A stretch of 64,000 nucleotides of DNA from Myxococcota bacterium. GTDB lineage: Bacteria > Myxococcota_A > UBA9160 > UBA6930. Below are positions 1,640 through 54,109 of this stretch, piece by piece. The first letter of the stretch is position 1; every line of letters begins with the position of its first letter. A program made the position numbers and the translations under genes. The notes beneath the pieces are model-generated. The model did not search any database. It saw only the letters and a list, made by a program, of their open reading frames with translations, and was not told the DNA's origin. The DNA lies in NCBI GenBank assembly GCA_965223415.1, contig OZ245002.1:1568001-1632000 (forward strand). Reading direction: 5' to 3'.

Positions 1640-2431
1640 TTAGCCCTCTTCGGTCGCCCCGAAGGCCGGCGCCTCCTCAATGAGGCGGACCATCCGGCGA
1701 AGTGTGTCCCGCTGGGTCTCCGCGTCGCCGGGGCGACCGACGGTCGCCCCGATGTTGAGCTTGCGGATCAGCTGCCGCGGCGGGCGGGCCGCCCCGGAGA
1801 GCGGCGGCATGACGGAGACGAGGGCGGTGGGGAAGCCGGCCTCTTCGAGGCCGCGTGCGATCAGACTCACGGTCTGATGGCAGACGGGTCACGAGGGCAC
1901 CAGTAGCGCCGCTTCCGCGCCGTCACCTCGCAGCCGCTCGACCAGCGCGGGGATCGTCTCCTGGAGCAGGGGCGCGACGTCGACGACCAGGCCCATGAGC
2001 ACGTGGGTGGTGCGGGCGACCGACCCGATCTCGCCGGCCGCCTCCATCTCGCGCAGCCGGTCCAGGGGAAGGTTGACGTTGTGGTCTTCCTCGGCGAACC
2101 GGTGGTCGTAGCCGGGATGGTGGATCTGGAGCTTTGCCGGGTCCACGTCGATCGGGATCTCCCGGACCTGCGGTGCATCGCCGCCGAAGTTCGGGATCGG
2201 CTTCATCGGCTCCTGCTCGCCGGCGATCGAATAGCCCCCGGTCGTGATCAGGGCGAAGCGGGTCTCGGCTGCGGGCTTGGCGAGGCGGGCGAAGGGATTG
2301 CCCTCGGTCCGATACCACGGGTAGCTGCCGAAGGCTTCCTTCGTCTTGCCCTGCTGGATCATGGGAAGCGCCCGGACCCTCCAGGATTCGAACGTGGGCG
2401 TCCAGCTAGCGAGGCTCGTGGTATCGGACAT
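1640..2431 (-). CDS. Selenoprotein of the glycine/betaine/D-proline reductase B (PrdB/GrdB-like) family, Sec at TGA 1889-1891
   Basis: ATG at 2431 (RBS GGGAGG) reads through ALITTGG, EEDHNVNLPLDRLREM to LLVPS-TGA-PVCHQTVSLIARGLEEAGFPT, in frame with the 1640..1870 ORF. UxxC motif plus downstream hairpin. Confidence 0.88.
1860..1878 (-). promoter_or_regulatory. Bacterial SECIS-like hairpin
   Basis: ATCAGAC-CGTGA-GTCTGAT: 7-bp stem, loop begins 17 nt after UGA, G at loop position 2. Confidence 0.75.
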
Positions 2432-2464
2432 GGGACCTCCCGATGCGTCCGAGCCCGAGCCTAG

Positions 2465-3755
2465 CAGGCTGCGGAAAAACCCCGTGCGACGGGTCGAATC
2501 GGTTGGTACAGGCATACCGGGGGGATGGAGATGCGCGGAACCGATCGAACGCAGTCCACGATGTTCAGCTACGTGTCGCCGGAGGCGCGTGTCCCCGCCG
2601 ATCATCCACTGCGCGTGACGCGGGAGATGACGAATCGCGCCCTGGTCCGGCTGGACGGGAGGTTGCGGAAGCTGTACTCGCGGACGGGTCGGCCGTCGAT
2701 TCCGCCCGAGCACCTGTTGCGGGCCCTGCTGCTGCAGGTGCTCTACTCGGTGCGAAGCGAGCGGATGCTGATGGAGCAGCTCGAGTACAACCTGCTGTTC
2801 CGCTGGTTCGTGGGGCTCGAGATGGACGACCGGGTCTGGGACGTGACGGTGTTCACGAAGAATCGGGATCGGTTGCTTCGGGGAGAGATCGCGGAGGGGT
2901 TCTTTCAGGCCGTGTTGGCGGAGGCCCGCGAGGAGGGGCTTCTGTCGGACGAGCACTTCACGGTGGACGGCACGCTGATCGAGGCATGGGCGGGGCAGAA
3001 GAGCTTTCGGCCGAAGGACGAGGACCGGGGCGGCCGCGGGGGTGGACGGAAGGCGACGGAGCGGGACTTCCACGGTGAGCGTAGGAAGAACGACACGCAC
3101 GCCTCGACGACGGACCCGGAGTCCCGGCTCTACCGCAAGGGGAAGGGGAAGGAAGCGAAGCTGTGCTTCATGGGCCACGTGGTGACGGAGAACCGGCATG
3201 GCCTGGTGGTGGCGGCCAAGACGACGCTGGCCACGGGCACGGCGGAGCGCGAGGCCTCGGTGGCGATGGTGAAGCGGGTGCCACGCGGACGGCGATCGAC
3301 GTTGGGCGGAGACAAGGGCTACGACACGGTGTCGCATGTCGAAGAGCTTCGAGAGCTGGGCGTGACCCCGCACGTTGCGCAGAACGACAAGGGCCGCCGC
3401 AGCGCGATCGATGATCGAACGACGACGCACGTGGGCTACGAGATCAGCCAGCGCAAACGCAAGGCGATCGAGCAGGTCTTCGGCTGGGGGAAGACGGTAG
3501 GCCCGATTCGCAAGGTGAAGCATCGCGGCAAGGAGCGGGTGGGCTGGATGTTCACGTTCACCCAGGCGGCCTACAACCTTGTGAGGATGAGGAACCTGCT
3601 ATGCCCCACGTAGCTTGTCGGGTCGAGTGGAGGGCCCCGTTGGCAGCGAGCCGGGCGTCAACCGGCGGCAAGGCCTCGATTCCGCGCTCCTTTCCTAGCC
3701 AAAGCGCCTCCAAGGCACCGTTCTCTGCGTACCATCGGCGTTCTTCCGCAGCCTG
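2465..3755 (+). mobile_element. IS5-family insertion sequence, 1291 bp
   Basis: Terminal inverted repeats CAGGCTGCGGAAAAAC (2465-2480) and GTTCTTCCGCAGCCTG (3740-3755), 15/16 match. Flanked by CTAG at 2461-2464 and 3756-3759. Single transposase gene. Confidence 0.93.
2525..3613 (+). CDS. IS5-family DDE transposase
   Basis: GRPSIPPEHLLRALLLQVLYSVRSERML, TVDGTLIEAWA, LGGDKGYD, RKAIEQVFGW, AAYNLVRM motifs. Confidence 0.95.
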   Translation: MEMRGTDRTQSTMFSYVSPEARVPADHPLRVTREMTNRALVRLDGRLRKLYSRTGRPSIPPEHLLRALLLQVLYSVRSERMLMEQLEYNLLFRWFVGLEMDDRVWDVTVFTKNRDRLLRGEIAEGFFQAVLAEAREEGLLSDEHFTVDGTLIEAWAGQKSFRPKDEDRGGRGGGRKATERDFHGERRKNDTHASTTDPESRLYRKGKGKEAKLCFMGHVVTENRHGLVVAAKTTLATGTAEREASVAMVKRVPRGRRSTLGGDKGYDTVSHVEELRELGVTPHVAQNDKGRRSAIDDRTTTHVGYEISQRKRKAIEQVFGWGKTVGPIRKVKHRGKERVGWMFTFTQAAYNLVRMRNLLCPT

Positions 3756-4556
3756 CTAGGGCAGATCCTGCGCCTCCACCTCGTCCACGTTCCACCAGGG
3801 GGACATGGCGAACTGGATCGCGTCCCCGAACAGGACGACGTGGCGCGGTGTGGGCTCGACCTTCCCCGCCCAGCGGGTGGTGTCCTCGATCTCGACCTTG
3901 GCCGGGTCGATCAGGGTCGTGCGGGCGTTCGCGAGGCCCGCGTCGTAGAAAGTGCGATCGCAGATGCCGTTCAGCCAGTAGATGAAGTCGTTGGCTTCGA
4001 CCCATTCGGCCGTCGCACGGATCGGCTGGCCGGCCCCGGGCTCGTGGCAGACGGACGCGAAGTGGGAGCCGTCCGCGCAGACGACCTCACTCGAGAGCGA
4101 CCCGCCCTCGAGGCCGTGACGGACCTCCCCGATCCCGGTGAAGATCGCCACCGGATCCATCGAGAATGCGTCCGCCCGGGCTTCGACGACCAGGTAGCGC
4201 GGCTTGCCGGTGGAGGGCTCCCGGACGTAGAGGGACCATTCGGCTCGCAGCCCGTTCGCCAGGCCCGAGACCCGGTAGACGTTGAGGGTGAGGCAGTGGA
4301 AGGGCTCCTCTCCCTCGATGCATCGGATCGGTGCCAGCGGGTGGGGCAGGTCGAGCTCCGCCTCGATCTGACGCTTGCCCTCGGACGTGAGCGCGAAGTT
4401 GAAGTAGACCGAAGGCGGCGAAGCCTCCACCGTGAAGTGGACCAGGGGCTTGTGCCGGCCCAGGAGGATGAGGAACGAATCGCGCAGGTAGAGCTGCGAG
4501 TAGACGAAGCGCTTGATCAGCTTGCGCAAGAGGCGTTGGGATCGGGACAGGCTCAT
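3756..4556 (-). CDS. Hypothetical protein (possibly acetoacetate-decarboxylase-like fold)
   Basis: 266-aa ORF with protein-like composition, overlapping the upstream WS/DGAT stop by 4 bp. The fold guess is weak. Confidence 0.7.
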   Translation of the reverse strand: MSLSRSQRLLRKLIKRFVYSQLYLRDSFLILLGRHKPLVHFTVEASPPSVYFNFALTSEGKRQIEAELDLPHPLAPIRCIEGEEPFHCLTLNVYRVSGLANGLRAEWSLYVREPSTGKPRYLVVEARADAFSMDPVAIFTGIGEVRHGLEGGSLSSEVVCADGSHFASVCHEPGAGQPIRATAEWVEANDFIYWLNGICDRTFYDAGLANARTTLIDPAKVEIEDTTRWAGKVEPTPRHVVLFGDAIQFAMSPWWNVDEVEAQDLP

Positions 4557-6007
4557 GCATCACCTCCGAGCGCTCGATCCAGGGATCCCGATGAGGCCTG
4601 GATCGGGACGTCCGCTTCCAGGGCGAGCTCCTCGAAGGAATCCGCCACCAACCCCGCGAAGCGCCCGAGATCGGGAACCAGGTCGTAATCGGCCGTGAAG
4701 CCCCAGAACACCTGCCCATGATAGGTCATGAGGGCGATCCCGAGCCCGATGTTCTCGAGCAGCGGGACCTTCGGGATCATCGCGAGGAGGCGGGCCCCCA
4801 GCATGTAGAGCGGGACCTGGGGGCCGGGCACGTTCGTCACGATCGTGTTGACGGGACCGGAGGCGAAGCCCGCCCCGAAGGCGAGAGCCTCCGCCGGGGC
4901 GAACTCCGTCGCCGCCATCAGCAGCTCCATCCCCATCGCCTGGCGGGATTCCTTCAGGTGGCGCGTCTCCTGCCGGATCGCTTCGAGCTGGGCCCTTCGA
5001 TCCGCCACGGCCACGGGCAGCTCCACGAACCAGCTCGAGACCCGGTTCCCGGTCTTTTCGTGCTCGTCCTTGCTGCGAAGGCTCACGGGTGTGGAAGCGC
5101 GAAAGACGATGTCGCTGAGGTCGACGCCCTCCTCGAGCAGGAGCGTGCGGAACGCTTGGGTGGCCGTGGCCAGGAATACGTCGTTGACCGTGCAATCGAG
5201 CTTGCGACGGACGGCCTTCACGTCGTCCAGGGACAGGGTCAGCCAGTCGAAGCGGCGGTGCGGGCAGAGCGGGCCGTTGATCGGCGTGTCCGAGCTCTGG
5301 CTCGCCGCCACGCCGAAGAATTCCCGCACCGCGGCGGCGCGGTCGCGGAGCTCGGCGCCCACGTCGCCCACTTCCTCGCGAAAGGCGCGCAGGCCGCGCA
5401 GCGCGCGGAGGGGCAGGCTCGTGTATCGCCAGGCCTCGTCGCGCAGGAGCTCCCGGGGCGTCGGCGCCGGCCGGGGCACCCAGCGCTTGGGCTCGTCCGG
5501 CTCGCCGTCCGGGGTGGGAGAGAGGAGGACCTGCGCCACCTCCACGCCGGCGGAGCCGTCCACCATGCAGTGGTGGGTCTTGGCGACGATCGCGAAGCGA
5601 TCGCCCGAAAGCCCCTCGATCACCCAGGCCTCCCAGAGCGGCTTTCGCCGGTCGAGGTGGTTGGCCATCAGCCGCGACGCGACCCGCTTGAGCTCGGCAT
5701 CCGTACCAGGCTGGGGCAGGCTCACGTGACGGATGTGGTAATCGAGGTCGAAGTGGGGATCGTCGACCCACACCGGGCGATTCTCGATCGGAATCCACTG
5801 GAGCTTCTGGCGATAGCGCGGAAGCTTGTGCAGCACGCCCCGGTAGCCCGCGCGGATCCGCTCGATGTCGATTCCGCCGTCGTCCCGGCGCAGGGGGCCC
5901 GCCTCGAAGATCTCGATGCCCGCAACGTGCATCGGCGTCGTCGGCGTCTCGGTGACGAGGAACGTGTTGTCCATCGCGGAGAGGCGCTCGTAGGCGTATC
6001 GGGCCAT
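4553..6007 (-). CDS. Wax ester synthase / diacylglycerol O-acyltransferase (WS/DGAT)
   Basis: ERLSAMD N-terminus, FDLDYH, PLWE, catalytic HHCMVDG, TVNDV, TNVPGP. Confidence 0.93.
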   Translation of the reverse strand: MARYAYERLSAMDNTFLVTETPTTPMHVAGIEIFEAGPLRRDDGGIDIERIRAGYRGVLHKLPRYRQKLQWIPIENRPVWVDDPHFDLDYHIRHVSLPQPGTDAELKRVASRLMANHLDRRKPLWEAWVIEGLSGDRFAIVAKTHHCMVDGSAGVEVAQVLLSPTPDGEPDEPKRWVPRPAPTPRELLRDEAWRYTSLPLRALRGLRAFREEVGDVGAELRDRAAAVREFFGVAASQSSDTPINGPLCPHRRFDWLTLSLDDVKAVRRKLDCTVNDVFLATATQAFRTLLLEEGVDLSDIVFRASTPVSLRSKDEHEKTGNRVSSWFVELPVAVADRRAQLEAIRQETRHLKESRQAMGMELLMAATEFAPAEALAFGAGFASGPVNTIVTNVPGPQVPLYMLGARLLAMIPKVPLLENIGLGIALMTYHGQVFWGFTADYDLVPDLGRFAGLVADSFEELALEADVPIQASSGSLDRALGGDA

Positions 6008-6087
6008 GGCTCCATGTTGCCTCAGGCCGCTGGGCCACGCCGCGGTGCTAGGATCGGAAAGCGGCCCGAACCGTGAGGAGGTGCAGC

Positions 6088-6657
6088 ATGGCACGCGCTC
6101 CCCGAATCAGCTTCAGCCACCTCGGGATCCACGTACACGACGTCGAGAAGATGACGGCCTTCTACACCGGCTTCATGGGCTTCTTCGAGACCGACCGCGG
6201 AACCCTCGACATGCTCCCGGGCAAGCCGCAGATCGTCTTCCTGAGCCGCGACCCGAACGAGCATCACCAGCTCGCCCTCGTGGAAGGCCGGGAGGACGGC
6301 GGCGGCACGGCGCGAGTGGTGAACCAGATCTCCTTCCACCTGGATTCGCTCGACGACCTGAAGGCCCTGGAGGCCGCCCTCGAGGAGGAGGGCATCGAGC
6401 CCCGCATGCCGATCACCCACGGCAACGAGTGGTCCCTCTACTTCGCGGACCCGGAGGGCAACGGCATCGAGTGCTTCGTGCACACGCCGTGGTACGTGCC
6501 CCAGCCGATCGTCGAGCCATTCGACATCTCGGCTCCGAGCGACGAGATCCTGCGCGAGACCGAGGCCCGCTTCAGCGGCCGCGACGGCGTCAAGCCCTAC
6601 GACCAATGGCGCCGGGATTTCGCGGAGAAGCACGGGCTCGAGTGGAACGAGAGCTGA
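6088..6657 (+). CDS. VOC/glyoxalase family protein
   Basis: SHLGIHV, EHHQLAL, HGNEWSLYFADPEGNGIE. GAGGAGG RBS. Confidence 0.88.
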   Translation: MARAPRISFSHLGIHVHDVEKMTAFYTGFMGFFETDRGTLDMLPGKPQIVFLSRDPNEHHQLALVEGREDGGGTARVVNQISFHLDSLDDLKALEAALEEEGIEPRMPITHGNEWSLYFADPEGNGIECFVHTPWYVPQPIVEPFDISAPSDEILRETEARFSGRDGVKPYDQWRRDFAEKHGLEWNES

Positions 6658-6693
6658 GGGCCGGCAGCGGATCGGCGGTGTAAGCTCGCGCTC

Positions 6694-7431
6694 ATGGCCG
6701 ATCCGATCCGCGCCTACCTCGTCGCCAACGCGCGCTACCACGACACGGACTACGCGCGCCTCCGCCTGCTCGAGCTGCTGGGCGAGTGCGAAGAGATCCG
6801 TACTCGGGTCGCCGACGGCTACTCGAACGTGGATGCCATCGCCGAATCGGACTTCCTGGTGACCTACACCTGCGACCTGCGACCCAGCCCCTCCGAGGAG
6901 GAGGCCCTGCGGGCCTTCGTCTCCTCCGGCGGGCGCTGGCTCGCCCTGCACGGAACCAACGCCTTCCTCGACTTCACGCCGAAGGGCATCGAGTGCCCCC
7001 GCAGCCACGACACCTTCATGAACACACTGGGCAGCCGCTTCCTCTCGCACCCGCCGATCCAACCTCACCTGGTGCGCGTCTCCGATCCGGAACATCCGCT
7101 GGTAAGGGGGATCGAACCCTTCGAGGCCTCCGACGAGATCTACCTGTGCGAGTACTTCGGCGAGGTGAAGCCCCTCTTGGAGACCTCCTTCACGGGAGAC
7201 TTCGGCGGCTACACCCTGGGACACTGGCCCACCGACGAGCCGCGCCTCGTCGCCTACACCCACCCGGTCGGTGAGGGCGAGGTGCTGTACATCACCCTCG
7301 GACACTGCTGCGGCCGCTACGACATGCAGCCGATCCAGGAGGTGGCGGAGGTCGTGAGGGGCTCCTGGGAGAACCGGACCTTCATCGAGCTCCTGCGACG
7401 CGGCCTGCGCTGGGCCCGGAAGGCGCTCTAG
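6694..7431 (+). CDS. ThuA-domain (class I glutamine amidotransferase-like) protein
   Basis: FVSSGGRWLALH, LGSRFLSHPP, HPLVRGI, DEIY, GEVLYITLGH. Confidence 0.85.
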   Translation: MADPIRAYLVANARYHDTDYARLRLLELLGECEEIRTRVADGYSNVDAIAESDFLVTYTCDLRPSPSEEEALRAFVSSGGRWLALHGTNAFLDFTPKGIECPRSHDTFMNTLGSRFLSHPPIQPHLVRVSDPEHPLVRGIEPFEASDEIYLCEYFGEVKPLLETSFTGDFGGYTLGHWPTDEPRLVAYTHPVGEGEVLYITLGHCCGRYDMQPIQEVAEVVRGSWENRTFIELLRRGLRWARKAL

Positions 7432-9658: not shown

Positions 9659-9723
9659 GCACGGGAGAATAGGCGGTTTCCCGCGGATGGGCCTGCGCGC
9701 GCGATCGCAGAGAGCGGCCGGAG

Positions 9724-11496: not shown

Positions 11497-11561
11497 GTCG
11501 TCTCGGAACCCGCCGCGGCCGATACTACTCGAATCCTCGGAATGCTGCTGAGGCCGCCCCG

Positions 11562-23040: not shown

Positions 23041-23669
23041 TCCCCGCGCGTCTCGACGAGCAGCGCGTTCAGGCTCCGGAAGAGCTCCGAGAAGAAGCGG
23101 GGAGGGCCGTTCGCCTCCATCACGCCGCGAACCTGTGGCACGAAGCGTCCCGGATGACGCGCGACGAAGTCGCGCCGTGCCCGCTGGTAGGCCCCGGCGT
23201 CGAGCCCGGCCTGGAGCGCCTCCGCCTCGCGGAACGTCAGGTAGTGCAGGAACTCGAGCTCGGCCACCAGGTGATCCGGCAGCTCATGACGCTCCGGGTC
23301 CAGGGAGAGACCGAAGTGGTGGTAGAAGCGCAGCACCTCTTCCATCGTCTTCATCCGGTCCTTCGCCCAGAGCCCTTCGTGTAGGGGGCAGGGCGGACCG
23401 GACGTCCCGACGTCGAAGAGGCGGGTGTACTCGACAGCGAGGTCGTCCCGTTCGAGACCGTCGCGCAGGGCGTCGACGTCCAGCGCGGGCACCACCAGCT
23501 CGCCGAGCGTCGCCGCCAGCGCCTCGGCCAGGCGGCCCTCCCGGATGTCCTCCAGCAACAGGCCTTCGGGGTAGCCGAGTGCCCCCGCGAGCAGGGCGAA
23601 GGCCCGGCTGCGCCGGGCGGCCCGCCGTTCGCCCTCGCCAGCCAGGCCTTCGAGGTGGCCGTCCATCAT
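23037..23669 (-). CDS. Molybdoenzyme maturation chaperone (TorD/NarJ/EbdD-like, delta subunit)
   Basis: EYTRLFDVG, PCPLHEG, RFYHHFGL, ELPDHLVAELEFLHYL. Confidence 0.9.
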   Translation of the reverse strand: MMDGHLEGLAGEGERRAARRSRAFALLAGALGYPEGLLLEDIREGRLAEALAATLGELVVPALDVDALRDGLERDDLAVEYTRLFDVGTSGPPCPLHEGLWAKDRMKTMEEVLRFYHHFGLSLDPERHELPDHLVAELEFLHYLTFREAEALQAGLDAGAYQRARRDFVARHPGRFVPQVRGVMEANGPPRFFSELFRSLNALLVETRGD

Positions 23670-26538
23670 GCGAGGACCACGTCGACCCGGGTGTCGCGAT
23701 CCGTGTGGCTCGGCTGCATGGCGATCCCCATCGGCCGCATGTGGAACTGTCCGCCTGCCAGCTCGACCGGGTTGAGTGGCGAGGGGATCAGGTTCTGGAA
23801 GCCCTTCTGGCCCTTGAACTGGAAGTTCTCCCAGGCGTGGTAGACGATCACCTCGCCCGGCCGCACCGACGGCGCCACTTTGGCGATGATCTCGAAGGCG
23901 TCGAGATCGTTGAACACCTTCACGCGATCGCCGTCCGCGATGCCGCGCGCCTCGGCGTCTTCGGCACTCATCCACATGGCGGGCTCTCCGCGCTGGAGCT
24001 GGAGCATGAGCTTGTCGTCACGCCACGCCGAGTGGATGCTCCAGCGGGTGTGGCCCCCACTGAGGATCAGCGGATGGTTGCCGCCCGCCATCGGCGGCTC
24101 CTTGTGCGTCGGGAGCTGCTCGCCCAGCTCCACGTAGAGCTCCTGGTCGAGATGGAACTGCATCCGGCGCGAGAGGGTCGGATATGGCTTCTTGTCCACG
24201 ACGTGGTAGGTGAGCGGGGTGATCGTGTCGTCGGGCGGCACGTCGGCCTGGGTGCCGATCGAGCCCAGGCTGTTGCCGAGGCTGGTGAAGCGCGCCCAGC
24301 CCTTCTTCTTGAGCGCGTCCCAGGAAACGCCTTCCAGGTTGGTGGACTGCTCGATGATCCGGGCCGCCACCTTCTCGTCGTCGGTGTGGCCGTAGGTTCC
24401 GCCGGAGGAGAAGGATTCGTAGAGGCCCTCGAAGGAACGGGGGAGGCCGTTGCGATCCTCGAAGTTCGTGACGCCTCGCGCAGCAGCGGCCTTGTCCACC
24501 GCCTCGGCGAGGCGCGAGAAGATCTCCCAGTCGGACTTGGCTTCGTAGAAGCTCGTCGCCTTCTCGCCCGCGTGGATGAACGGCATCAGCGGCGTCACCC
24601 ACTTGTGCTCGCTCCGCTCGTACCAGGCGGCGGCCGGCAGCACGAAGTCCGACCAGAGCCCGGTGGACGTCATCCGCCAGTCGATCGTGACCATGGTCCG
24701 CAGCTTCGGCCAGAGGTGCTCGAGCACCAGCGGGTAGCTTCGGATGCGCCGTAGCGGGTTGCTGACGAGCGAGAACATCACCCGAGGGTCGTTGCCGGGC
24801 TTGGGCCAGACGTACTGCCAACCCTTGTCGAGGGATTCCTGGAGAACTTCCTTGATCGGCCGCTTCAGGTGGGGATCCCACTCCTGGAGCCGCTCGCTCG
24901 CATGGATCAGGCCACCGTGGATGTACCAGAACATGGCACCGGAGGTCTGGTTGCCCGATTCGAAGCTCGCCCGGCTCTGCTCGTAGACGATCATCTCGTC
25001 GGTGAAGCCTTTGAGCTTGAGGCGCGCCTCGTCGACCAGGCGCATGGAGCCCACCAACGCCTGGATCGGACGACCCATGGCCTCGATGATGAAACTCTCG
25101 AGGCCGTCCTGGGTGAGGAAGGGGAAGCCGACGAAGCCGCTGCCCTTCTTGCCGTAGTTGCCCGTGAGGGCGTAGACCAGCGCCTGGGTCCGCTCGGTGA
25201 GGTTGCCGTGGTAGGCCTTGCTGAAGTTGCTGGTGGTGACCATGCACGCCGACTTCGCCTCGGCGAAGCGGCGGGCCAGCTCCCGGATCATCCCGGGAGG
25301 CGTTCCGCACAGCTTCGAAGCCTCCTCGGGCCCGTAGCTCGCCAGATGCTCGCGCAACCGCGCGTAGACGGTTCGCACCGCGACGCGCTTGCCATCGTGG
25401 AGGGTCACCTCGCTCGCGCCTTCCAGCTCCGGCCGGAGATCGCCGAGCTCGAGGGTGCGGCGCGGCGCCGGCACGGCCCCGCGCTCGGTGTCGAGGAGGT
25501 AGAGCTCCTCCTCGTCCCCACCCCGCTCCATGTCCGAGCCCCGCAGGAAGAGCCCTGTGTCCTCACGCACGAGCAGGGGGAGATCGGTCTGCTCGGTGAC
25601 GAACTCCCGATCGACGAGACCGTCTTCCACCAGCACCTGGCAGATCCCGAGCCCCAGTGCCGCATCGCCCCCCGGCTTCACGGGAACCCACAGGTCCGCA
25701 TGGATCGAGGAGGGATTGAAGTCCGGCGTGATGCAGACGATCTGGGCGCCGTTGTAGCGGGCCTCGGTCAGGAAGTGGGCGTTGGGGATCTGGGTGTAGT
25801 AGGGGTTCGACCCCCAGCAGACGATCATGTCCGAGAAGAAGTAGTCGTCGGCCGAGCGCTCGAAGAGGATCTTGCCGAAGGTCTCCCCGACGCCCCGGTG
25901 CCCGTCGCCGATCTCGGTGTTCATGTCGAGGCTGGTGGAATCGAGCAGGACCGCGAGCCGCGCCTGCCCCGCGGTCTGGGTGCCCGTGGTGATGCCCGGG
26001 CCCTGGTCCCAGATGATCCGGTCGGTTCCCTCCTCGACGACGGTCGTGACCATCGACTCGGCGATCTCGCCCAGGGCCTCGTCCCAGGAGACCCGCTTCC
26101 AGCGGCCCGAGCCCCGCTCGCCGGCGCGCTTCAGCGGGTAGCGGACGCGGGCCGGATCGTACATGCGCTCGCTGAAGCACGCGCCCTTCTGGCAGCCCCG
26201 CGGATTGAAGTCCGGGACGTCCGGGCGGATCTGCGGGTAGTCCGCTGCCTGCTCCTCCCGCCACACGAGGCCGTCCTTGACGTAGACGTTCCAGGCACAG
26301 TGAGCCTGGTACCAGCAGTTCACCCAGTGGCTACTGCGCACGACCTTGTCCCACGCCCAGCGCTCGCGGTAGACGTCCCGCCAATCGCCGTACTCCGGCG
26401 GTGCGGGCACTCCCTCGGGCAGCATCTCGGGCGGCGCCTCCTCCCGGCAGCTCAGGCTGCCGAGCCCGAGGGTGAGGGTGGCCCCGCCGGCCAGAGCGGC
26501 CTGCAGGAACTCACGGCGGTCGAGGAAGAGGTCGCGGC

Positions 26539-26542
<4 letters not shown>
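23666..26542 (-). CDS. DMSO reductase family type II alpha subunit, ethylbenzene/steroid C25 dehydrogenase-like
   Basis: Tat motif DRREFL. FS0 motif SHWVNCWYQAHC...NPRGCQKG. VWREEQAA. EIGD with probable Asp Mo ligand. HTRWSIHS C-terminal domain. Confidence 0.92.
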
Positions 26543-27563
<1,021 letters not shown>

Positions 27564-32845: not shown

Positions 32846-33469
32846 ATGCGAAGGATTCCCTTCTACTTCGACTACGCCTGACCCTGGGCCTACTTCGGCA
32901 GTTGCCGAATCGATGCGTACTTCGAGGACCTGGACGTCGAGCTCGACTTCCGACCGGTCCAGCTCCGCAAGCTGATCGAGCTGCCCGAGGGCCAGGACAA
33001 GCCGGCGCCGCGAGCGAAGCTGGGGCCGCGCAAGCAGGCCGACTACGAGGCCAACGTCCGGCACTGGTCGGATCTCTGCGGCGCTCCGATCTCGCCCGAC
33101 GCCCGCACCTACATGAAGAGCGACACGAGCCTGGCCCTGCGCGCCGCCCTGGTGGCCAAGGACGCGGGGCGCTTCCGGGAGTTCCATGATCCCATGTACC
33201 GCTCCCGTTGGGCGGAGCCCACGGATCCCTCGGACCCGACCCATGTCCACGCGCTCCTCGACCGGGCGGGGCTCGATCCGGACGCGGCGTTGGCCCGGGC
33301 CGAGTCGGAAGAGCTGGTGGCACGCCTCGACCTTGACACGAAGGAAGCGATCGAACGCGGATTGTTCGGCGTACCCACGATCTTCGTGGGCGACGAGATG
33401 TTCTTCGGCAACGACCGCTTCGAGCTCGTTCGGCACTACCTGACGAAGGCGGAAGAGCGCTCGCGATGA
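32846..33469 (+). CDS. DsbA / GST-kappa (HCCA isomerase)-like selenoprotein, Sec at TGA 32879-32881
   Basis: ATG at 32846 after GGAGG reads MRRIPFYFDYA-TGA-PWAYFG and stays open, in frame with the 33113..33469 ORF (GLFGVPTIFVGDEMFFGNDR). Confidence 0.87.
32894..32909 (+). promoter_or_regulatory. Bacterial SECIS-like hairpin
   Basis: TTCGGC-AGTT-GCCGAA: loop begins 18 nt after UGA, G at loop position 2. Confidence 0.72.
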
Positions 33470-37018: not shown

Positions 37019-37095
37019 TGGCGCGCCCGGCACGACTCGAACGTGCGACCTCCAGGTCCGCAACCTGGCGCTCTATCCAACTGAGCTACGGGCGC
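37019..37095 (-). tRNA. tRNA-Arg (anticodon GCG)
   Basis: GCGCCCG acceptor stem, TAGCTCAGTTGGATAGAGC D-arm, CCAGG-TTGCGGA-CCTGG anticodon arm, GTTCGA T-loop, encoded CCA. Confidence 0.95.
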
Positions 37096-37141
37096 TCTCA
37101 GAGCGGGGCGCGAATCCTAGCGAACCCTGCTCGGGAAGCCT

Positions 37142-37229
<88 letters not shown>

Positions 37230-37280
37230 GGGCGCTCGCGTGGGCTGAATTCGCGAGCGATCACATGCACTTGGGGGATC

Positions 37281-37370
<90 letters not shown>

Positions 37371-42023: not shown

Positions 42024-42295
42024 GCCCGGGAGGGTAGGCCCGCTGGTACCCCGCGCTCAACCCGAGCGGGTCTGCTCCCATTCTTCAAGCTCCAACACGG
42101 CGATGACGTCCGGGAGAGAAGGCACGCCGAACCGCCTCGCATGCAGAAGGCGGGCGCCAGCGACGACGGATGCCAGGCCGGAGGAATGGAAGCCGCGGCT
42201 ACGAGGCCAACGAGCGCGAAAGCTGCTGGTCGCCCTGCGGCGCTGCTAGGCGGGCCGAACGGCGGGGGAACCGCCGAGCCCGGCGGCGGACGCGG

Positions 42296-42380
<85 letters not shown>

Positions 42381-47937: not shown

Positions 47938-49196
47938 CCGGGCTTCGACTCCGAAATTTCGTAGCGCACCTGCAGGTGCTTCAGGCCCGGCACCAGGTTG
48001 GACGCGACGCGCTGCGGCTCGCTCGCCAGCTCGATCGATTCGATGCGCGGGATCAGCTCGCTGTAGAGCGCACCGGTCGTCATCCGCGCCAGGTTCGAGC
48101 CGATGCAGAAGTGCTCACCGATGCCGAAGCCGAGATGGGGGTTCTTCTTGCGGTCGACCCGAAACGCATGCGGCTCGTCGAAGACCTCTTCGTCCCGGTT
48201 CGCCGACGCGTAGAAGAGCACGATCGCGTCGCCGGCCTTGATCGTCTTGCCTCGTAGCTCGTAGTCAACCTGGGCGGTACGCACCATCGTGTTCACCGGC
48301 GTCACGTACCGGATGATCTCGTTGACGGCCTGCTTCTCGATCGAGAGGTCGGCTTTCCAGTTGGCGATCTGTTCCGGGTTCTCGATGAGCGCACGGAGCC
48401 CACCGCCAATTCCTCCGCGCGTGGTCTCGTGCCCCGCGGTGAAGGTGATCAGGAAGTAGCCGAGCGTGTCGCCGGGGCTCATCGGCTCGCCGTCGACGGT
48501 GGCGTTGGCGATCACGCTCGAGAGGTCGTCGGTCGGGTTCGCGCGGCGATCCTCGATGATGCCCGAGAAGAACTGGAACATCTCCAGGCCGAGTTCCATC
48601 ATCCGCGTCTTGCGGTCCGGGTCACGCTGGAACTCGGGATCCGCGCTCCCGAAGAGCTCGTTCGTCAGCTTCAGGATCAGCGGCTCGTCGGACTCGGGCA
48701 TGCCCAGGATCCGGCAGATGATCTTCAGCGGGTGGATGTTCGCGACGTCCGTGATGAAGTCGCACTCGTCGCGCGCCGCCATCTCGTCGATCAGTCCCTT
48801 CGCGGTCTCGTCGATTGCCGGCTTCAGCTTCTTGATCACGTTCGGCGTGAACGCGTGGGCCGCGACCTTCCGGAGCTTGCGATGGTCGTCGCCATCCATC
48901 TGGATGATCGTGCGCATCGTCCCCATGAAGCCGCCCTCGCCCTGCATTCGCTCCGCCTCGAGCTCCTGCTCGAGCGGGTTGATCACCATACGCGGGTGGT
49001 TCGTGAACTTCTCGGGCTGCTTCGAGATCTCGATGACGTCGGCGTGCTTCGTCACCGCCCAGAAGGGCCTCCACCCGGGGAGGTCGAACCTGTGAAGCGG
49101 GTCGTTCGCCCGAAGCTCGTTCCAGATGTCGTGCGGGTAGCCGTGCTCGGCGTAGGCCGACGGCTCCACCAGCCTGAGTCCGTCCAATTCGTTCAT
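47934..49196 (-). CDS. Cytochrome P450
   Basis: AGHETT I-helix, EIIR ExxR, SANRDE, HLGFGIGEHFCIG heme motif. Confidence 0.95.
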   Translation of the reverse strand: MNELDGLRLVEPSAYAEHGYPHDIWNELRANDPLHRFDLPGWRPFWAVTKHADVIEISKQPEKFTNHPRMVINPLEQELEAERMQGEGGFMGTMRTIIQMDGDDHRKLRKVAAHAFTPNVIKKLKPAIDETAKGLIDEMAARDECDFITDVANIHPLKIICRILGMPESDEPLILKLTNELFGSADPEFQRDPDRKTRMMELGLEMFQFFSGIIEDRRANPTDDLSSVIANATVDGEPMSPGDTLGYFLITFTAGHETTRGGIGGGLRALIENPEQIANWKADLSIEKQAVNEIIRYVTPVNTMVRTAQVDYELRGKTIKAGDAIVLFYASANRDEEVFDEPHAFRVDRKKNPHLGFGIGEHFCIGSNLARMTTGALYSELIPRIESIELASEPQRVASNLVPGLKHLQVRYEISESKPG

Positions 49197-49197
49197 C

Positions 49198-49854
49198 TCA
49201 TCCTCCGGCGGGTCGCGCTCCGGCCGTACCCGGGCTCGTTTGGGGAAACAGGTGCTCGAAGTAGTCGAGCAGGAAACGGGTCTGGCGCCGCAACGCGTCC
49301 GGTGCGAGCGGGTCGGTGCCGCTCGTCTCGCGGAGCAGAGCCGCGAGTGCGAAGTGACCGAACACGACCTGCAGGATCGATGCGGTCAGCAGCGGCAGTT
49401 CCTCGTCGGGCCACTCGTCGGCGCCCGGTCCGCCGCGCACCATCTCGGTCATCCGCTCGATCAGCGGGCCGATCCAGGTACGCGCCAGGTGGGCGAGGAA
49501 GGGCCCCTCGCTGATCGCCTCGACGTAGATCAGTCGCGAGAGTGACGGGTGCGCAGCGAGGTGATGAAGCAGATCCTCGATCAGCCTCGCGAGGTCGGCC
49601 TCCGGGCGATCGCGGTCGATCGCGTCGAGCACCCCGGCGACGGGCTGGAGTCCGCGGTCGAGCACGGCCTGGTAGAGCGCGGTCTTGCTCGGGAAGTAGA
49701 TGTAGAGCGTCGCCGGGCTCACGCCGGCGGCGAGCGCGATCTCGCGCACCCGGGTCCCGGTCAGCCCGCGCTTCGCGAACTGCTCCTCGGCGGCATCCAG
49801 GATCCGAGCTTCGGTGGCTTCGGATTGGCTCGTGGCGACGGCGGCCTGCGACAC
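49198..49854 (-). CDS. TetR/AcrR family regulator
   Basis: RILDAAEEQF...VREIALAAGVSPATLYIYFPSK HTH. GGGAGGG RBS. Confidence 0.93.
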   Translation of the reverse strand: MSQAAVATSQSEATEARILDAAEEQFAKRGLTGTRVREIALAAGVSPATLYIYFPSKTALYQAVLDRGLQPVAGVLDAIDRDRPEADLARLIEDLLHHLAAHPSLSRLIYVEAISEGPFLAHLARTWIGPLIERMTEMVRGGPGADEWPDEELPLLTASILQVVFGHFALAALLRETSGTDPLAPDALRRQTRFLLDYFEHLFPQTSPGTAGARPAGG

Positions 49855-49877
49855 CTGCAGGGCCCTCCCGACATGAA

Positions 49878-49891
49878 TGAACGTTTGTTCA
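49878..49891. promoter_or_regulatory. Candidate TetR operator palindrome
   Basis: TGAAC-GTTT-GTTCA in an AT-rich patch about 25-40 bp upstream of the tetR start. Confidence 0.5.
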
Positions 49892-50202
49892 CATATATCG
49901 TGGAGGTCTTGGGAATGCCAGCCCCATGAGCCTGCTCAGCTCGGTGGGTCGATCCTGATGGGTGACGACCGGGCCCGTTCGCGAATCGTCGCCGGCACGC
50001 GCGGATCCAGCAGGATGCCCAGACGAATAGCGTCGGGTCGGCCATCGCCTCGAGACCGTGAGCACCATCGATCTCCCCGTCGACGACGCGCAGGAGGCCG
50101 AACGCCGCTCGGCGCCTTCGGTTGCGGTTCCGATTCGATCCAGAACGGCGCCGCTGAGGACGCATGCTCGGAGCATCCTGGCTGCGATACCCTCCGACAC
50201 CC

Positions 50203-50919
50203 ATGATCCAGCTGTACGCCCTGCCCCCGGCCTTCGGTCTGCGCAACACGGGACCCTTCGCGCTCAAGTGCGAGATGGCCCTCGTCCACCTCGGGGTCGA
50301 CTTCGAGATCGTTCACGAAGGCGACCCCAGGAAGGGCCCCAAGGGCAAGATGCCCTTCTTGAAGGACGGCGACGCGGTGATCGCCGACTCGGAGCTGATC
50401 CTTCAGCACCTCGACGCCCGAACGAACGGGGGCCTCTACGGGAAGCTGAGCGATGCGCAGCAGGCCGACGGCGTGGCCTTCTCGCGGCTCGCAGAGGAGC
50501 ATCTCTACTGGATCGGGGTAGCCAGCCGCTGGCTCGACGATGATTGGTTCCCTCACATCGCTCGCGGCTTCTTCGGCACGATGCCCATGCCCGTGCGCTG
50601 GATCGCACCCCGCCTGGCTCGCCGCGAGGTGCGACGGACCTACCATCTGCAGGGCCTGGGCCGGCACACCCTCGACGAGCAGAAGGGTTTTGCCCGCCGC
50701 GATCTCGACGCGATCGCCCGCAAGGTCGGCGAGAGACCTTTCCTGCTCGGCGACGAGGTGAACGCCCATGATTTCGCCGTCGCCGCGCTCATTGCAGGCT
50801 TCCTCGACAACCAGCCTGCCACCTGGGCGTCCGCCGTCATCCGCGAGTTCCCGACCGTGGTCGACTACGTGGAACGCGTGCAGGCGACGGTCGGCGTCTA
50901 CGCAAGGGCGAAGTCCTAG
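50203..50919 (+). CDS. Glutathione S-transferase, metaxin/FAX-like
   Basis: GPFALK.E, GPKGKMPF, IADSELI, EEHLYW, PFLLGDE...D. Confidence 0.9.
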   Translation: MIQLYALPPAFGLRNTGPFALKCEMALVHLGVDFEIVHEGDPRKGPKGKMPFLKDGDAVIADSELILQHLDARTNGGLYGKLSDAQQADGVAFSRLAEEHLYWIGVASRWLDDDWFPHIARGFFGTMPMPVRWIAPRLARREVRRTYHLQGLGRHTLDEQKGFARRDLDAIARKVGERPFLLGDEVNAHDFAVAALIAGFLDNQPATWASAVIREFPTVVDYVERVQATVGVYARAKS

Positions 50920-51049
50920 CCGGCGCCACCGCTGTTCGCATGAAGATCCTCGCAGGGCTCTTCCTGATACGGGTGGTGCCCCTGTTGCAGCACCTCTGAA
51001 CAGGCTTTGCGCGGAACGGCGGCCGGCTGCCTCGGTCCTGGATCGTGCG

Positions 51050-51928
51050 TCAGCGCTCTCGCGCGCGGGCGCGTTCCAGGATCCGCGGTGCAGCGAGGTC
51101 CGCGCACACGGCCTCGAGCTCGTCGTCCCGGACGCCTCGCCACTCGAGGTCGTCGAGCGACTCCTCGAGCGGCACATCGGTGACGAGCGTCGCGAGCTTC
51201 TTGAACAACATCGCGTCGTCGCGCTCCGCGGCCAGTGTCTCCGCCAGGCGCGCCGCGCCCCGTACCTTCACGTCCCATTCGGCTGCGTCGTCGGGGATCG
51301 ACTCGATGGAGCCGTAGCGATCGAGCAGGAGTGCAGTGCTCTTCTCGCCGAAGCCGCGCAGGCCGGGGATTCCGTCGGCGGCGTCGCCCACCAGCCCGAG
51401 GAAATCGGGGATGGCCGAGGGCGGAACGCCGCGTCGCTCCCGTACGGCCTTCTCATCGATGACCTTGCGACGGATCGTGTCGACCTGCACCACCTGCTGA
51501 CCGCGCACGCTCTGGCCGAGATCCTTGTCGGGGCTCATGATGCGCACCTGCTGGACATCGTCCGCCCAGCGCGCGGCCGCGGTGGCCAGCGCGTCGTCGG
51601 CCTCCCAGCGATCCATGCGCCATACCGTCAACCCGAGCGCATGGGCGGCGAGCTCCACCAGGTCGAACTGGGCCTTGAGCGCCTCTTCCATGCCCTCGCC
51701 CGTCTTGTAGCCATCGAAGAGATCGTTGCGGAAGGACTCGACGGGGTTGTCGAAGGCGGCCGCCAGGTGGGTGGCTCCTTCTTCGGGGCTGTCCAGCAGG
51801 TTCAGCATCGAGCTCATGAAGCCGACGGTGGCCTTGACGTCGCTGCCATCGGCGGCCGTGTGGTCCGGCCTCTTGGAGTAGTGGGCGCGAAACAGCTCGA
51901 AGGTGCCGTCGACGATGTGAAGGCGCAT
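51050..51928 (-). CDS. 5'-3' exonuclease / flap endonuclease
   Basis: IVDGTFELFR, EADD, SPDKD, LVGDAADGIPG..GFGEK H3TH motif. Confidence 0.92.
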   Translation of the reverse strand: MRLHIVDGTFELFRAHYSKRPDHTAADGSDVKATVGFMSSMLNLLDSPEEGATHLAAAFDNPVESFRNDLFDGYKTGEGMEEALKAQFDLVELAAHALGLTVWRMDRWEADDALATAAARWADDVQQVRIMSPDKDLGQSVRGQQVVQVDTIRRKVIDEKAVRERRGVPPSAIPDFLGLVGDAADGIPGLRGFGEKSTALLLDRYGSIESIPDDAAEWDVKVRGAARLAETLAAERDDAMLFKKLATLVTDVPLEESLDDLEWRGVRDDELEAVCADLAAPRILERARARER

Positions 51929-51988
51929 GGCGTGACGAAAGGGTAGCGACCGGCCCGAAGGCACCGCACGCCGCGGTATCGTCCCGTC

Positions 51989-53224
51989 ATGGCTACGTCT
52001 TCGGGCTCGACCTTTGCGGCGCTCGCCGTGCGCGACTTCCGCATCCTGTGGGTCGGGACCTGGCTCTCGTTCACCGCCTTCTTCATGTCGACGGTGGTGA
52101 ACAGCGTCGTGGCCTTCGAGCTCGAAGGTCTCAACACCTCGGTGGGTTGGGTGGTGTTCGCACAAGGGATCACCATGATGACCCTGTCGCCCATCGGCGG
52201 GGCGGTAGCCGATCGTCTGCCCAAGCGACGCGTGGTGGCGCTCGGACTGGTCGTCACGGGCAGCATCTTCTTGACGGTCTCGGCGCTCGTGGCCTTCGAG
52301 CGCATCGCAGTCGTGTTCCTCGCGATGGGCTCACTGGTGATGGGCGCCACCTTCTCGTTTCAGGGACCCGCGCGACAGGCGCTGGTGGTCGACCTGGTAC
52401 CGACGCCGCTACGCCCGAACGCGATCGCGCTCGCGACCGTGGCGAACACGGGGAGCCGCGTCTTCGGGCCGGCGCTGGCGGGCCTGTTCCTCGTTGCGGG
52501 CGGCGCGGGGCCGGGCGTCGCCTACGCGTGGATGGCCGGCCTGTACTTTCTCTCGGCTGCGCTGCTGATCCTCCTCCCGAAGTCCCGCATTCCGGAGAAC
52601 GCCGAGCAGCGCGGTCTCTTCGACGACGTGGCGATCGGGCTGCGTTACGTCGCCCACACCCCGCGCCTGCGGCTCCTGCTCCTGTTCTACACGCTCGTCA
52701 TCATGGCTGGCTTTCCGCACATCACGTTGCTGCCCGGGCTGCTCGAGAATCAGCTCGGACGGGAGGCCTCGGAGGTGAGCCTGCTCTTCGCATCATCCGC
52801 AGTGAGCGCGCTGGCATCGAGCCTCGTCGCTGCGCGCCTCGCGGATTCCCGCCGAGGACTTACGTACTTCGCGGGCTCGGGCCTGCTGTTCGCGCTGTCC
52901 GTGCTCGGCCTGGGAGCGGTGCCCAGCTTCGCTTGGGCGTTCGTGGCGATGTTCGCGGTAGGGCTCGGGAGCGGCGCCTTTCAGACGCTGGGCTCCGCCG
53001 TGGCGGTGCAGGAGGCAGAGCCCCAGTACGTGGGCCGGGTGCTCTCGCTCACCATGTTGGCGTTTGCGGGCTTCGGGCTGGTGGGGCTGCCGGTGGGCTT
53101 GATCGCGGATCACGTGGGCGAGCGGGAGACGATGATCGGAATGGGGCTCGTGGTGCTCGGCCTGATCGGCATGCTGGCGGTGGGGTCGACTCGGGTACCG
53201 GCACGGGCGCCGCGGAGCTCCTGA
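51989..53224 (+). CDS. MFS transporter (EntS/MFS_3-like)
   Basis: FAALAVRDFRILW, GGAVADRLPKR, PARQA, about 12 TM segments. Confidence 0.88.
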   Translation: MATSSGSTFAALAVRDFRILWVGTWLSFTAFFMSTVVNSVVAFELEGLNTSVGWVVFAQGITMMTLSPIGGAVADRLPKRRVVALGLVVTGSIFLTVSALVAFERIAVVFLAMGSLVMGATFSFQGPARQALVVDLVPTPLRPNAIALATVANTGSRVFGPALAGLFLVAGGAGPGVAYAWMAGLYFLSAALLILLPKSRIPENAEQRGLFDDVAIGLRYVAHTPRLRLLLLFYTLVIMAGFPHITLLPGLLENQLGREASEVSLLFASSAVSALASSLVAARLADSRRGLTYFAGSGLLFALSVLGLGAVPSFAWAFVAMFAVGLGSGAFQTLGSAVAVQEAEPQYVGRVLSLTMLAFAGFGLVGLPVGLIADHVGERETMIGMGLVVLGLIGMLAVGSTRVPARAPRSS

Positions 53225-53356
53225 CGCGGCGGAGAGGACCGATGCTCCGGTGGAATCACGGGACTTCCGTCCCGTTCTCCAGCTACGTCGAGTGCGAGAT
53301 CGAGATCCTCGCCGATTCACGAGTGCCGAGGGGGACATGTGATTGTCGTGCGGGCT

Positions 53357-54109
53357 TCAGTCCAGGTGTTGCCTCAGCGCGGCCAGCACCACCTCCGGCC
53401 CCGAGCGCCGCTGGTAGTTCTCCGACTGGTCCATCCACAGGACCTTGCCCTCGGCATCGACGAGGAGCGAGGTCGGGACCGGCAGCGCTTCCGCGTCGTC
53501 GCCCGGCGGCGCCGAGTGCGCCAGCAGGTTTCGCAGCCCGAAGGCGTCGGTGACGACCAGGTCCGGGTCCGAGATCATGACGGCCTGCAGGCCGTGGGCA
53601 CCGCGGCCCTCGCGGATCTCCTCCGGATGGTCGGTGCTGACGGTGAGCACCTGCACGTTCCGCTTGTCGAACTCGGGCCGGAGCTCTTCCCATCGCCGCA
53701 ACTCGGCGACACAGTAGGGTCACCAGTGGGCGCGGAAGAACTTGATCAGGACGGGCTTTCCGCGCAGGTCCGCCGAGTCGAAGATTTCGCCGCGATCGTC
53801 CGGGCCCGTGAAGTGCGGAAGCGTATCGCCGACCTGGATCGAGCCGGCGGCGACTTCCTGCGCACTGATCGCGACCGTGAACGGGAGGAAGCCTCCGATC
53901 ACCATGGCGCCGACGCCCGCGATCGCGCCGTACCAGTTTACGCCCCGGAAGAACGAGAACAGGCCGAGCAGCGCTGCCGACACCCACGTGACGACGAACA
54001 GCGTCCGGTTCACGGGGAGGTCGACGGCGCGGGCCTGGGAGAACCACAGGACGGTACAGCCAAACGCCAGGACGAGAGCTCCGAGTGCGATCTTGCTTCC
54101 GGTCTTCAT
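53357..54109 (-). CDS. Membrane-anchored peroxiredoxin-like (AhpC/TSA) selenoprotein, Sec at TGA 53720-53722
   Basis: Three N-terminal hydrophobic segments, IQVGDTLPHF, GKPVLIKFFRAHW-TGA-PYCVAELRRW, in frame with the 53357..53701 ORF (VSTD, SDPDL, PTSLLVD.EGKV). Confidence 0.9.
53692..53710 (-). promoter_or_regulatory. Bacterial SECIS-like hairpin
   Basis: (G)TCGCCG-AGTTG-CGGCGA(T): loop begins 16 nt after UGA, G at loop position 2. Confidence 0.75.

What the first reader, a model, noticed from the sequence alone, without database searches (positions are those of the whole stretch)
1640..54109. Three unlinked genes share a hidden UGA-recoding signature, pointing to a selenoprotein-rich genome
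Seen: TGA at 1889 (-), 32879 (+) and 53720 (-) each falls exactly at a redox Cys position. Each is followed by CCC and by a 6-7 bp hairpin whose loop begins 16-18 nt downstream with G then U at loop positions 2-3 (CGUGA, AGUU, AGUUG). Each frame stays open to a complete protein. Known: this fits the bacterial SECIS model read by SelB. Inference: three in 64 kb suggests a large selenoproteome that standard gene callers miss, with a tight lineage-specific SECIS.
Basis: partly seen in the sequence, partly recalled or inferred. Interest (0 to 1): 0.8.

Follow-up and report, generated by a model that had tools for sequence, protein, structure and literature searches.

The report
Selenoprotein-rich bacterium, standard UGA recoding
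Three genes in this window each carry a UGA 'stop' codon that is most likely read as selenocysteine by the ordinary bacterial machinery, which the genome encodes in full; they are 3 of 19 such predicted genes, all from already known families, so the finding is real but largely ordinary.

Summary
The three in-frame TGAs, the CCC codons and the hairpins are present as described. The genome (5.83 Mb, 97% complete) encodes selA, selB, selD and tRNA-Sec. Relatives keep TGA and hairpin together, with covariation in one family and frozen rare codons in another; Cys orthologs lose the hairpin. All three genes are very likely selenoproteins of catalogued families: PrdB/GrdB-like, DsbA-like form 2, Prx-like UxxC.

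CCC is only the Pro codon after the active-site residue: 7 of 19 sites have it and orthologs use CCG/CCT/CCA. The hairpin follows the protein family, not the lineage, and fits the published bacterial SECIS model.

My genome scan finds 19 Sec genes, not the ~270 that this window's density implies. That is 'selenoprotein-rich' (threshold 6) but far below the records (39-63). The set matches the known marine-metagenome selenoproteome and lacks Sec-FdhA and Sec-SelD. The genome has three haem-copper oxidase genes. Four PrdB-like genes have no detected PrdA/GrdA partner. This scan already reported several of the other Sec genes singly, elsewhere in this genome.

The parts
1640..2431 (-). PrdB/GrdB-like predicted selenoprotein gene, 263 aa, U181 in a U-P-V-C (UxxC) motif; no PrdA/GrdE or GrdA partner detected
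   Evidence: PF07355; TIGR04483 118.9 bits, below its cut-off of 300; start
1889..1891 (-). in-frame TGA, predicted Sec codon
   Evidence: TGA at the aligned position in 20 of 20 fetched loci, own locus included
1860..1878 (-). bSECIS hairpin, 7-bp stem, loop CGUGA
   Evidence: z -2.83; 133 of 133 cells paired, 2 of 7 pairs with changes on both sides
32846..33469 (+). DsbA-like form 2 (DxxUP) predicted selenoprotein gene, GST-kappa/HCCA-isomerase family, 207 aa, U12
   Evidence: (PF01323)
32879..32881 (+). in-frame TGA, predicted Sec codon
   Evidence: TGA in one ortholog and TGC in two orthologs at 56-57% identity
32894..32909 (+). bSECIS hairpin, 6-bp stem, loop AGUU
   Evidence: kept with a U-A to C-G change in the TGA ortholog L096, lost in the TGC orthologs L097 and L098
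53357..54109 (-). Prx-like (AhpC/TSA) UxxC predicted selenoprotein gene with a hydrophobic N-terminal region, 250 aa, U130
   Evidence: (PF00578); the membrane anchor is judged by eye from the sequence
53720..53722 (-). in-frame TGA, predicted Sec codon
   Evidence: TGA in 19 of 20 fetched loci, own locus included; the one TGC lies in G027, where selA was not found
53691..53711 (-). bSECIS hairpin, 6 Watson-Crick pairs (8 with G-U), loop AGUUG
   Evidence: stem codons invariant in 14 of 14 close family members, rare codons included; coverage peak in metagenome contigs
54135..56555 (-). DsbD-like thiol:disulfide interchange gene directly upstream of the Prx-like gene; possible electron donor (inferred)
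   Evidence: PF11412, PF02683, PF13899; adjacent also in L024, not seen in most other relatives

Best explanation
Each of the three in-frame UGA codons is most likely read as selenocysteine by the standard bacterial route, and the three genes belong to a set of 19 predicted thiol-redox selenoprotein genes in a genome that encodes SelA, SelB, SelD and tRNA-Sec. Inferred from the established pathway: SelD makes selenophosphate, SelA converts Ser-tRNA-Sec to Sec-tRNA-Sec, and SelB binds the hairpin whose loop G lies about 18-26 nt after the UGA and delivers the tRNA. The hairpin is built inside the coding sequence by synonymous codon choice, separately in each protein family; the CCC is the Pro codon of the active-site motif. 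Likely roles, all untested: the Prx-like protein is a membrane-anchored selenol/thiol reductase fed by the adjacent DsbD-like protein; the DsbA-like protein is a glutathione-dependent GST-kappa-type enzyme whose catalytic Ser went to Cys and then Sec; the PrdB-like protein is a stand-alone UxxC reductase working outside the proline/glycine reductase complex.
For: Machinery. selA E 2e-131, selB above cut-off with the C-terminal model positions 537-581 matched, selD above cut-off, tRNA-Sec 69.4 bits with anticodon UCA. selA is found in 28 of 31 genomes, own included. TGA conservation. 58 of 58 PrdB-like matches in 22 of 31 genomes carry one TGA; 19 of 20 fetched Prx-like loci have TGA at the site. 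Sec/Cys pairing. 100 of the 120 best database homologs of the DsbA-like protein have Cys there, and the other 20 start downstream of the site. RNA-level selection. The PrdB-like stem is paired in 133 of 133 cells with 12 double changes, and 0 of 500 shuffles reach its covariation score. The Prx-like stem keeps CGA (5% of Arg codons) in 14 of 14 sequences and TTG/TTA (3% of Leu codons) in 14 of 14, while flanking codons vary. Families. All three are in Table 1 of PMC13188914.
Against: No 75Se or proteomic data; Sec insertion is not shown directly. Hairpins 2 and 3 are no more stable than shuffles. G011 carries TGA genes although selA was not found in it (85% complete). A loose hairpin filter passes as many TAG as TGA sites (130 against 107), so calls rest on the family match. 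The count of 19 is a minimum: unknown families or short genes may be missed. The dsbD linkage was seen in only one other relative. The functions are inferred from fold family only.
Confidence: 0.93

Rival explanations
1. The lineage uses its own tight recoding signature, UGA-CCC plus a short GU-loop hairpin, and has a very large hidden selenoproteome.
For: The signature is specific: 5 of its 6 genome-wide matches are Sec genes. CCC is the commonest +1 codon (24 of 41 TGA loci). The loops of the three window sites are alike.
Against: The signature recovers only 5 of 19 sites. The CCC share is not above Pro codon usage (p=0.11). Orthologs use CCG 12, CCT 4 and CCA 1 of 41. Loop position ranges over 18-26 nt and 3 of 19 loops have GG instead of GU. 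De novo scans plus nine family searches give 19 genes (34, 49-52, 69-73).
Confidence: 0.06
2. The TGAs are nonsense mutations or sequencing errors in pseudogenes.
For: The genome holds real nonsense alleles. A PQQ glucose-dehydrogenase-like gene has TGA at a Cys position plus a second TAG (C1:3601433 and 3601958), and C1:4911221 has TGA where its paralog has Trp.
Against: The same TGA recurs in homologs from other genera and families at 25-93% identity. A contig of run X2 matches 53700-54200 with no difference (X2 may be the source study).
Confidence: 0.01
3. UGA is reassigned genome-wide (to Trp or Gly), or is read as Cys by a suppressor-like tRNA.
For: Cys homologs exist for the sites tested, so Cys would be functional.
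Against: TGA ends 2657 of 4415 long coding frames. The only UCA-anticodon tRNA found is tRNA-Sec, and tRNA-Trp(CCA) is present. Read-through sites are confined to redox positions with hairpins.
Confidence: 0.01

Closest known systems
Bacterial Sec insertion system with the bSECIS consensus (Zhang and Gladyshev model, as given in PMC13188914 Fig. 2A legend)
   Same: SelA/SelB/SelD/tRNA-Sec present; 3-9 nt loop with G then G/U in the first two loop positions; 4-16 bp stem; 16-37 nt spacing.
   Different: Nothing essential. SelD is the Cys (CxxC) form fused to an FAD oxidoreductase, a fusion described as common in ocean samples (PMC2398784).
Global Ocean Sampling marine selenoproteome (PMC2398784, Table 2)
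   Same: Same dominant families: SelW-like, AhpD-like, UGSC, Prx TxxU, PrdB, Prx-like UxxC, ArsC, GPx, deiodinase-like, DsbA.
   Different: There the families came from unlinked reads; here 19 genes sit in one near-complete genome that lacks Sec-SelD and Sec-FdhA.
Selenoprotein-rich bacteria: Syntrophobacter fumaroxidans (39 genes, PMC5029168), Olavius Delta-1 symbiont (57) and a Methylomirabilota MAG (63) (PMC13188914)
   Same: Meets the 'selenoprotein-rich' definition (6 or more genes).
   Different: Far fewer genes (19). No anaerobic-respiration selenoenzymes were found. The genome has three haem-copper oxidase subunit I genes, whereas 78.3% of selenoprotein-rich species were anaerobes in PMC5029168.
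D-proline reductase PrdB (TIGR04483) / GrdB family (PF07355)
   Same: GRDB domain, UxxC motif, similar length.
   Different: Scores 82-152 bits against a cut-off of 300; four paralogs; PrdA/GrdE not found in 31 genomes and GrdA not found in 13 (no positive control rang).
DsbA-like protein form 2 (PF01323, DxxUP) and HCCA isomerase / GST kappa (PDB 2imd, 1yzx)
   Same: D-Y-A-U-P motif; PF01323; E 1.7e-15 to HCCA isomerase.
   Different: Sec stands where the solved enzymes have Ser. No activity has been tested for the Sec form in the papers I read.
Prx-like thiol:disulfide oxidoreductase selenoproteins (PF00578, UxxC)
   Same: AhpC-TSA domain with W-U-P-Y-C.
   Different: Hydrophobic N-terminal region of about 85 aa; below the cut-off of every NCBIfam model hit.

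Membership tests
Bacterial Sec-decoding trait | selA, selB, selD and tRNA-Sec(UCA) in the genome | tested here: met
Bacterial Sec-decoding trait | In-frame UGA aligned with Cys in homologs and conserved as UGA in other organisms | tested here: met
   no Cys homolog was seen among the PrdB-like matches (58 of 58 carry a TGA)
bSECIS consensus | [quoted passage not shown] | tested here: met
bSECIS consensus | Structure conserved by covariation or synonymous-site constraint | tested here: met
   related sequences are not independent
Bacterial Sec-decoding trait | Selenium present in the protein products | not testable with these tools
   needs 75Se labelling or mass spectrometry
Selenoprotein-rich organism | At least six selenoprotein genes (PMC5029168) | tested here: met
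   19 predicted genes, each with a Pfam or NCBIfam match spanning the TGA
   5 of 19 sites match; CCC not enriched over Pro usage
D-proline reductase PrdB equivalog (TIGR04483) | Score above the curated cut-off of 300 bits | tested here: not met
   118.9 bits for the 240-aa form, which lacks the first 23 residues; paralogs 82-152 bits
D-proline / glycine reductase complex | Partner proprotein PrdA/GrdE (PF09338) and GrdA (PF04723) | tested here: inconclusive
   0 of 31 and 0 of 13 genomes, but no control genome rang
GrdB/PrdB-like domain family (PF07355) | Pfam match above cut-off, with UxxC | tested here: met
   34.9 bits against 22
DsbA-like selenoprotein form 2 | PF01323 with DxxUP motif | tested here: met
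Prx-like UxxC selenoprotein | PF00578 with UxxC motif | tested here: met

The most novel reading that the evidence does not exclude
This order of Myxococcota-like bacteria is an overlooked oxygen-respiring, selenoprotein-rich lineage and a main carrier of the marine selenoproteome known so far mostly from unlinked ocean reads. It keeps Sec decoding with no Sec-FdhA or Sec-SelD, and its PrdB-like selenoproteins (58 in 22 of 31 genomes, no partner subunit found) are a stand-alone reductase class with an undescribed substrate.
Probability: 0.35. Interest if true: 0.55.

Novelty: new member of a known kind. Interest (0 to 1): 0.3.

Why it matters
The mechanism and all families are known, so the value is in annotation and distribution. 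Table-11 gene calling cuts 19 redox genes here, among them 7 of the 13 AhpC/TSA domains above cut-off. The genome also places the marine-type selenoprotein set in one near-complete genome with haem-copper oxidases, against the view that oxygen-using bacteria rarely keep selenoproteins (PMC13188914). It offers concrete targets for the open question of what partner-less PrdB-like selenoproteins do.

Tried and rejected
Candidates rejected as Sec sites. C1:+3601433 (PQQ dehydrogenase-like; TGA at a Cys position, but a second nonsense codon 175 codons on: pseudogene). C1:+4911221 and +1065526 (paralogs have Trp and mostly Tyr). C1:+446315 (no family hit). C1:-1040201 and +4292672 (read by eye as natural gene ends). 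C1:+2685230 (its Cys matches are to similar neighbouring frames; judged a shadow frame by eye, not tested further) and C1:+1660124 (fetched, not examined).

Family searches that added no new TGA site in this genome: molybdopterin oxidoreductases 0 of 13, thioredoxin 0 of 7 (50), glutaredoxin 0 of 7 (51), rhodanese 0 of 4 (52), DUF3179 0 of 3 (71), OsmC 0 of 1 (73). CMD, AhpD, DSBA and AhpC-TSA returned only sites already found (49, 72, 70, 69). MsrA, GST, MoeB, DsrE, HesB, UshA-like and most other listed families were not searched by profile. The outputs were cut, so part of their low-ranked TGA rows was not seen.

No conserved gene neighbour was found for the PrdB-like genes in 24 loci. No solved relative of the PrdB-like protein was found (best E 0.097). 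The AlphaFold job for it never finished, so there is no fold evidence.

Small-share sequencing runs were not used to name a habitat. The RNA contigs laid are short pieces from related organisms and do not show expression of this gene.

Paper searches: 'Myxococcota' + 'selenoprotein' gave 4 unrelated papers. In the 15 rows listed none held a lineage term. One search listed 12 of 18 lineage papers, which I saw as listings only. One search gave 2 papers on other organisms. Subscription journals, and the groundwater MAG survey cited as ref. 66 of PMC13188914, were not seen and may already cover this lineage.
Full report
OBSERVATION. The window is C1:1568001-1632000 of a single-contig genome of 5.83 Mb, 71% GC, 97% complete. 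The TGAs at 1889-1891 (-), 32879-32881 (+) and 53720-53722 (-) are each followed by CCC and by a hairpin with loop CGUGA, AGUU or AGUUG after 17, 18 and 16 nt. Read with TGA=U they give a GrdB/PrdB-like protein (PSUPVC), a DSBA-family protein (DYAUPW) and an AhpC/TSA protein (HWUPYC); each Pfam match spans the TGA. The first gene starts at 2431, with a GGAGG ribosome site and a Met conserved in 4 of 4 close orthologs. TGA is otherwise the main stop codon, ending 2657 of 4415 long coding frames.

MACHINERY. selA (C1:1917446), selB (C1:1703912, C-terminal model positions also matched), selD (C1:562702) and tRNA-Sec with anticodon UCA (C1:4487765-4487863) are all present and unlinked. SelD has Cys (CGGC) and is fused to an N-terminal FAD oxidoreductase (read). 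selA is found in 28 of 31 genomes of the genus, family and order, own included. The closest records for the PrdB-like gene (66-85% identity) are MAGs titled Myxococcota, Deltaproteobacteria, Proteobacteria and Gammaproteobacteria bacterium, so the lineage is probably Myxococcota-like. The class label UBA9160 is my recalled guess and comes from no call on this genome.

ARE THE TGAs SEC CODONS? PrdB-like family: all 58 matches, in 22 of 31 genomes, hold one TGA. In the 20 loci fetched (own included) it sits at the aligned site with a hairpin. The 7-bp stem is paired in 133 of 133 cells with 12 double changes, and 0 of 500 shuffles reach its covariation score; 3 of 7 pairs never vary and kin are not independent.

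Prx-like family: 19 of the 20 loci fetched have TGA and a hairpin. The exception has TGC and no hairpin, and lies in G027 (99% complete), where selA was not found. In the 14 closest members (41-100% identity) stem codons +4 to +6 and +8 to +10 are invariant, with CGA and TTG/TTA, which make up 5% and 3% of their amino acids' codons in this genome; flanking codons vary. In metagenome contigs coverage peaks on 53672-53733, the UGA-hairpin stretch.

DsbA-like family: of 20 loci fetched, 2 have TGA with the hairpin (one U-A to C-G change), 2 have TGC without it, and 16 distant ones have Ser; 4 of the 18 non-TGA loci gave only weak hairpins. Of the 120 best database homologs, 100 have Cys at the site and 20 begin after it. 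I infer that these 20 are Sec genes cut by gene callers; their DNA was not checked.

Against: only hairpin 1 is more stable than shuffles, and G011 (85% complete) has TGA genes although selA was not found in it.

THE SIGNATURE. CCC is the Pro that follows the active-site residue. Among the 19 sites the next codon is CCC 7, CCG 4 and non-Pro 8; CCC is 40% of Pro codons (p=0.11). Among 41 TGA loci it is CCC 24, CCG 12, CCT 4, CCA 1. Loop G positions run from 18 to 26 nt, 16 sites have GU and 3 have GG. This is the general bSECIS model as given in PMC13188914. Hairpin sequence follows the protein family across genera, so it is family-specific, not lineage-specific.

SIZE OF THE SELENOPROTEOME. 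I scored all 89,701 TGAs for coding potential, hairpins, redox motifs and paralog Cys pairs, then checked candidates against NCBIfam and Pfam. Nineteen pass, given as C1 positions of the TGA. Prx/AhpC-TSA, 7: 49082, 1053986, 1320935, 1621722, 1678428, 2980801, 4271195. PrdB-like, 4: 1347835, 1569891, 3014780, 5107979. AhpD-related NF041238, 2: 547232, 5147093. One each: SelW-like 2043513, GPx 1013294, deiodinase-like 4448273, ArsC-like NF041106 5698669, UGSC NF041046 1118117, DsbA-like 1600879.

Profile searches for ten families found no further TGA site. The loose hairpin filter alone is not specific (TAG 130, TGA 107), final calls were made by eye plus family match, and many listed families were not searched, so 19 is a minimum. 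The window's density would imply about 273; three sites within 52 kb occur somewhere in the genome in 17% of random placements of 19 sites. None of 13 molybdopterin oxidoreductase matches has an internal stop. Three haem-copper oxidase subunit I genes are present, which suggests oxygen respiration; subtype was not determined and one could be an NO reductase.

HOW IT LIKELY WORKS. Shown: the sequences, the machinery genes, conservation and covariation. Inferred from the established pathway: SelB binds the hairpin and delivers Sec-tRNA. Inferred from family: thiol/selenol redox roles. The Prx-like gene lies 26 nt downstream of a DsbD-like gene, which could supply electrons; the link was seen in one other relative. 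The DsbA-like protein aligns its Sec with a Ser of HCCA isomerase 2imd; that this Ser activates glutathione is recalled knowledge. The four PrdB-like proteins score far below the PrdB equivalog cut-off and have no conserved neighbour. PrdA/GrdE and GrdA were not found in 31 and 13 genomes, without a positive control. I read them as stand-alone reductases of unknown substrate.

COMPARISON WITH WHAT IS KNOWN. PMC13188914 (parts 1-4 of 10 read, plus passages) lists all these families, including DsbA-like form 2 (DxxUP), and gives 57 and 63 genes as the records. PMC5029168 (passages) defines selenoprotein-rich as six or more genes, gives 39 for S. fumaroxidans, and reports 78.3% of rich species as anaerobes. 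PMC2398784 (passages and Discussion) shows the same family set and the Ndh-SelD fusion in ocean reads. PMC12013277 (passages) found 298 genes in 20 test genomes, 195 of them correctly annotated, so both 19 genes and mis-annotation are ordinary. No supplements were read. My searches found no paper on selenoproteins of this lineage, within the library's limits. Earlier notes of this scan report several of the other Sec genes one by one; I had found them before reading the notes.

VERDICT. A real and well-supported set of selenoprotein genes read by the standard system: a new member of a known kind. The CCC and lineage-specific SECIS ideas are not supported. Remaining interest lies in the lineage and in the partner-less PrdB-like proteins. 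Interest 0.3.

Noticed in passing
window 2525-3613 (+): IS transposase (DUF772 + DDE_Tnp_1) about 95 nt upstream of the PrdB-like start codon on the opposite strand; a near-identical copy lies elsewhere in the genome.
   Followed up: no
G000:C1:3600983-3602000 (L070): PQQ glucose-dehydrogenase-like pseudogene with TGA at a Cys position and a second TAG; a trap for Sec/Cys-pair searches.
   Followed up: yes
G000:C1:561202-565110 (L010): SelD is the Cys (CGGC) form fused to an N-terminal FAD/NAD oxidoreductase, like the Ndh-SelD fusions of ocean samples.
   Followed up: partly
G000:C1:1052.6-1054.4 kb (L062:238-1392, -): 385-aa UxxC Prx-like predicted selenoprotein with an unassigned N-terminal region and a hydrophobic C-terminus; only residues 124-196 match Pfam.
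   Followed up: no
G000:C1:3014327-3015481 (L061:628-1782, +): PrdB-like predicted selenoprotein with a C-terminal extension of about 160 aa that matched no family.
   Followed up: no
L079, L080, L085, L088: PrdB-like relatives with a U-P-L-D-H motif: Sec kept, second Cys of UxxC replaced by Asp, which hints at a variant mechanism.
   Followed up: no
L078 (G009:C36): In this relative a PrdB-like Sec gene and a Prx-like Sec gene lie side by side.
   Followed up: no
G000:C1:4481396-4481490 (-): Second tRNA-Ser(GCT) call by ARAGORN 6 kb from selC; it lacks tRNA motifs on inspection and is probably a false call.
   Followed up: partly
window 37019-37370 and 42294-42380 (-): tRNA cluster Arg(GCG), Ser(GGA), Ser(GCT), plus tRNA-Ser(TGA).
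   Followed up: no
window 23666-26554 (-): 962-aa molybdopterin oxidoreductase without an internal TGA; one of 13 such matches in the genome.
   Followed up: no
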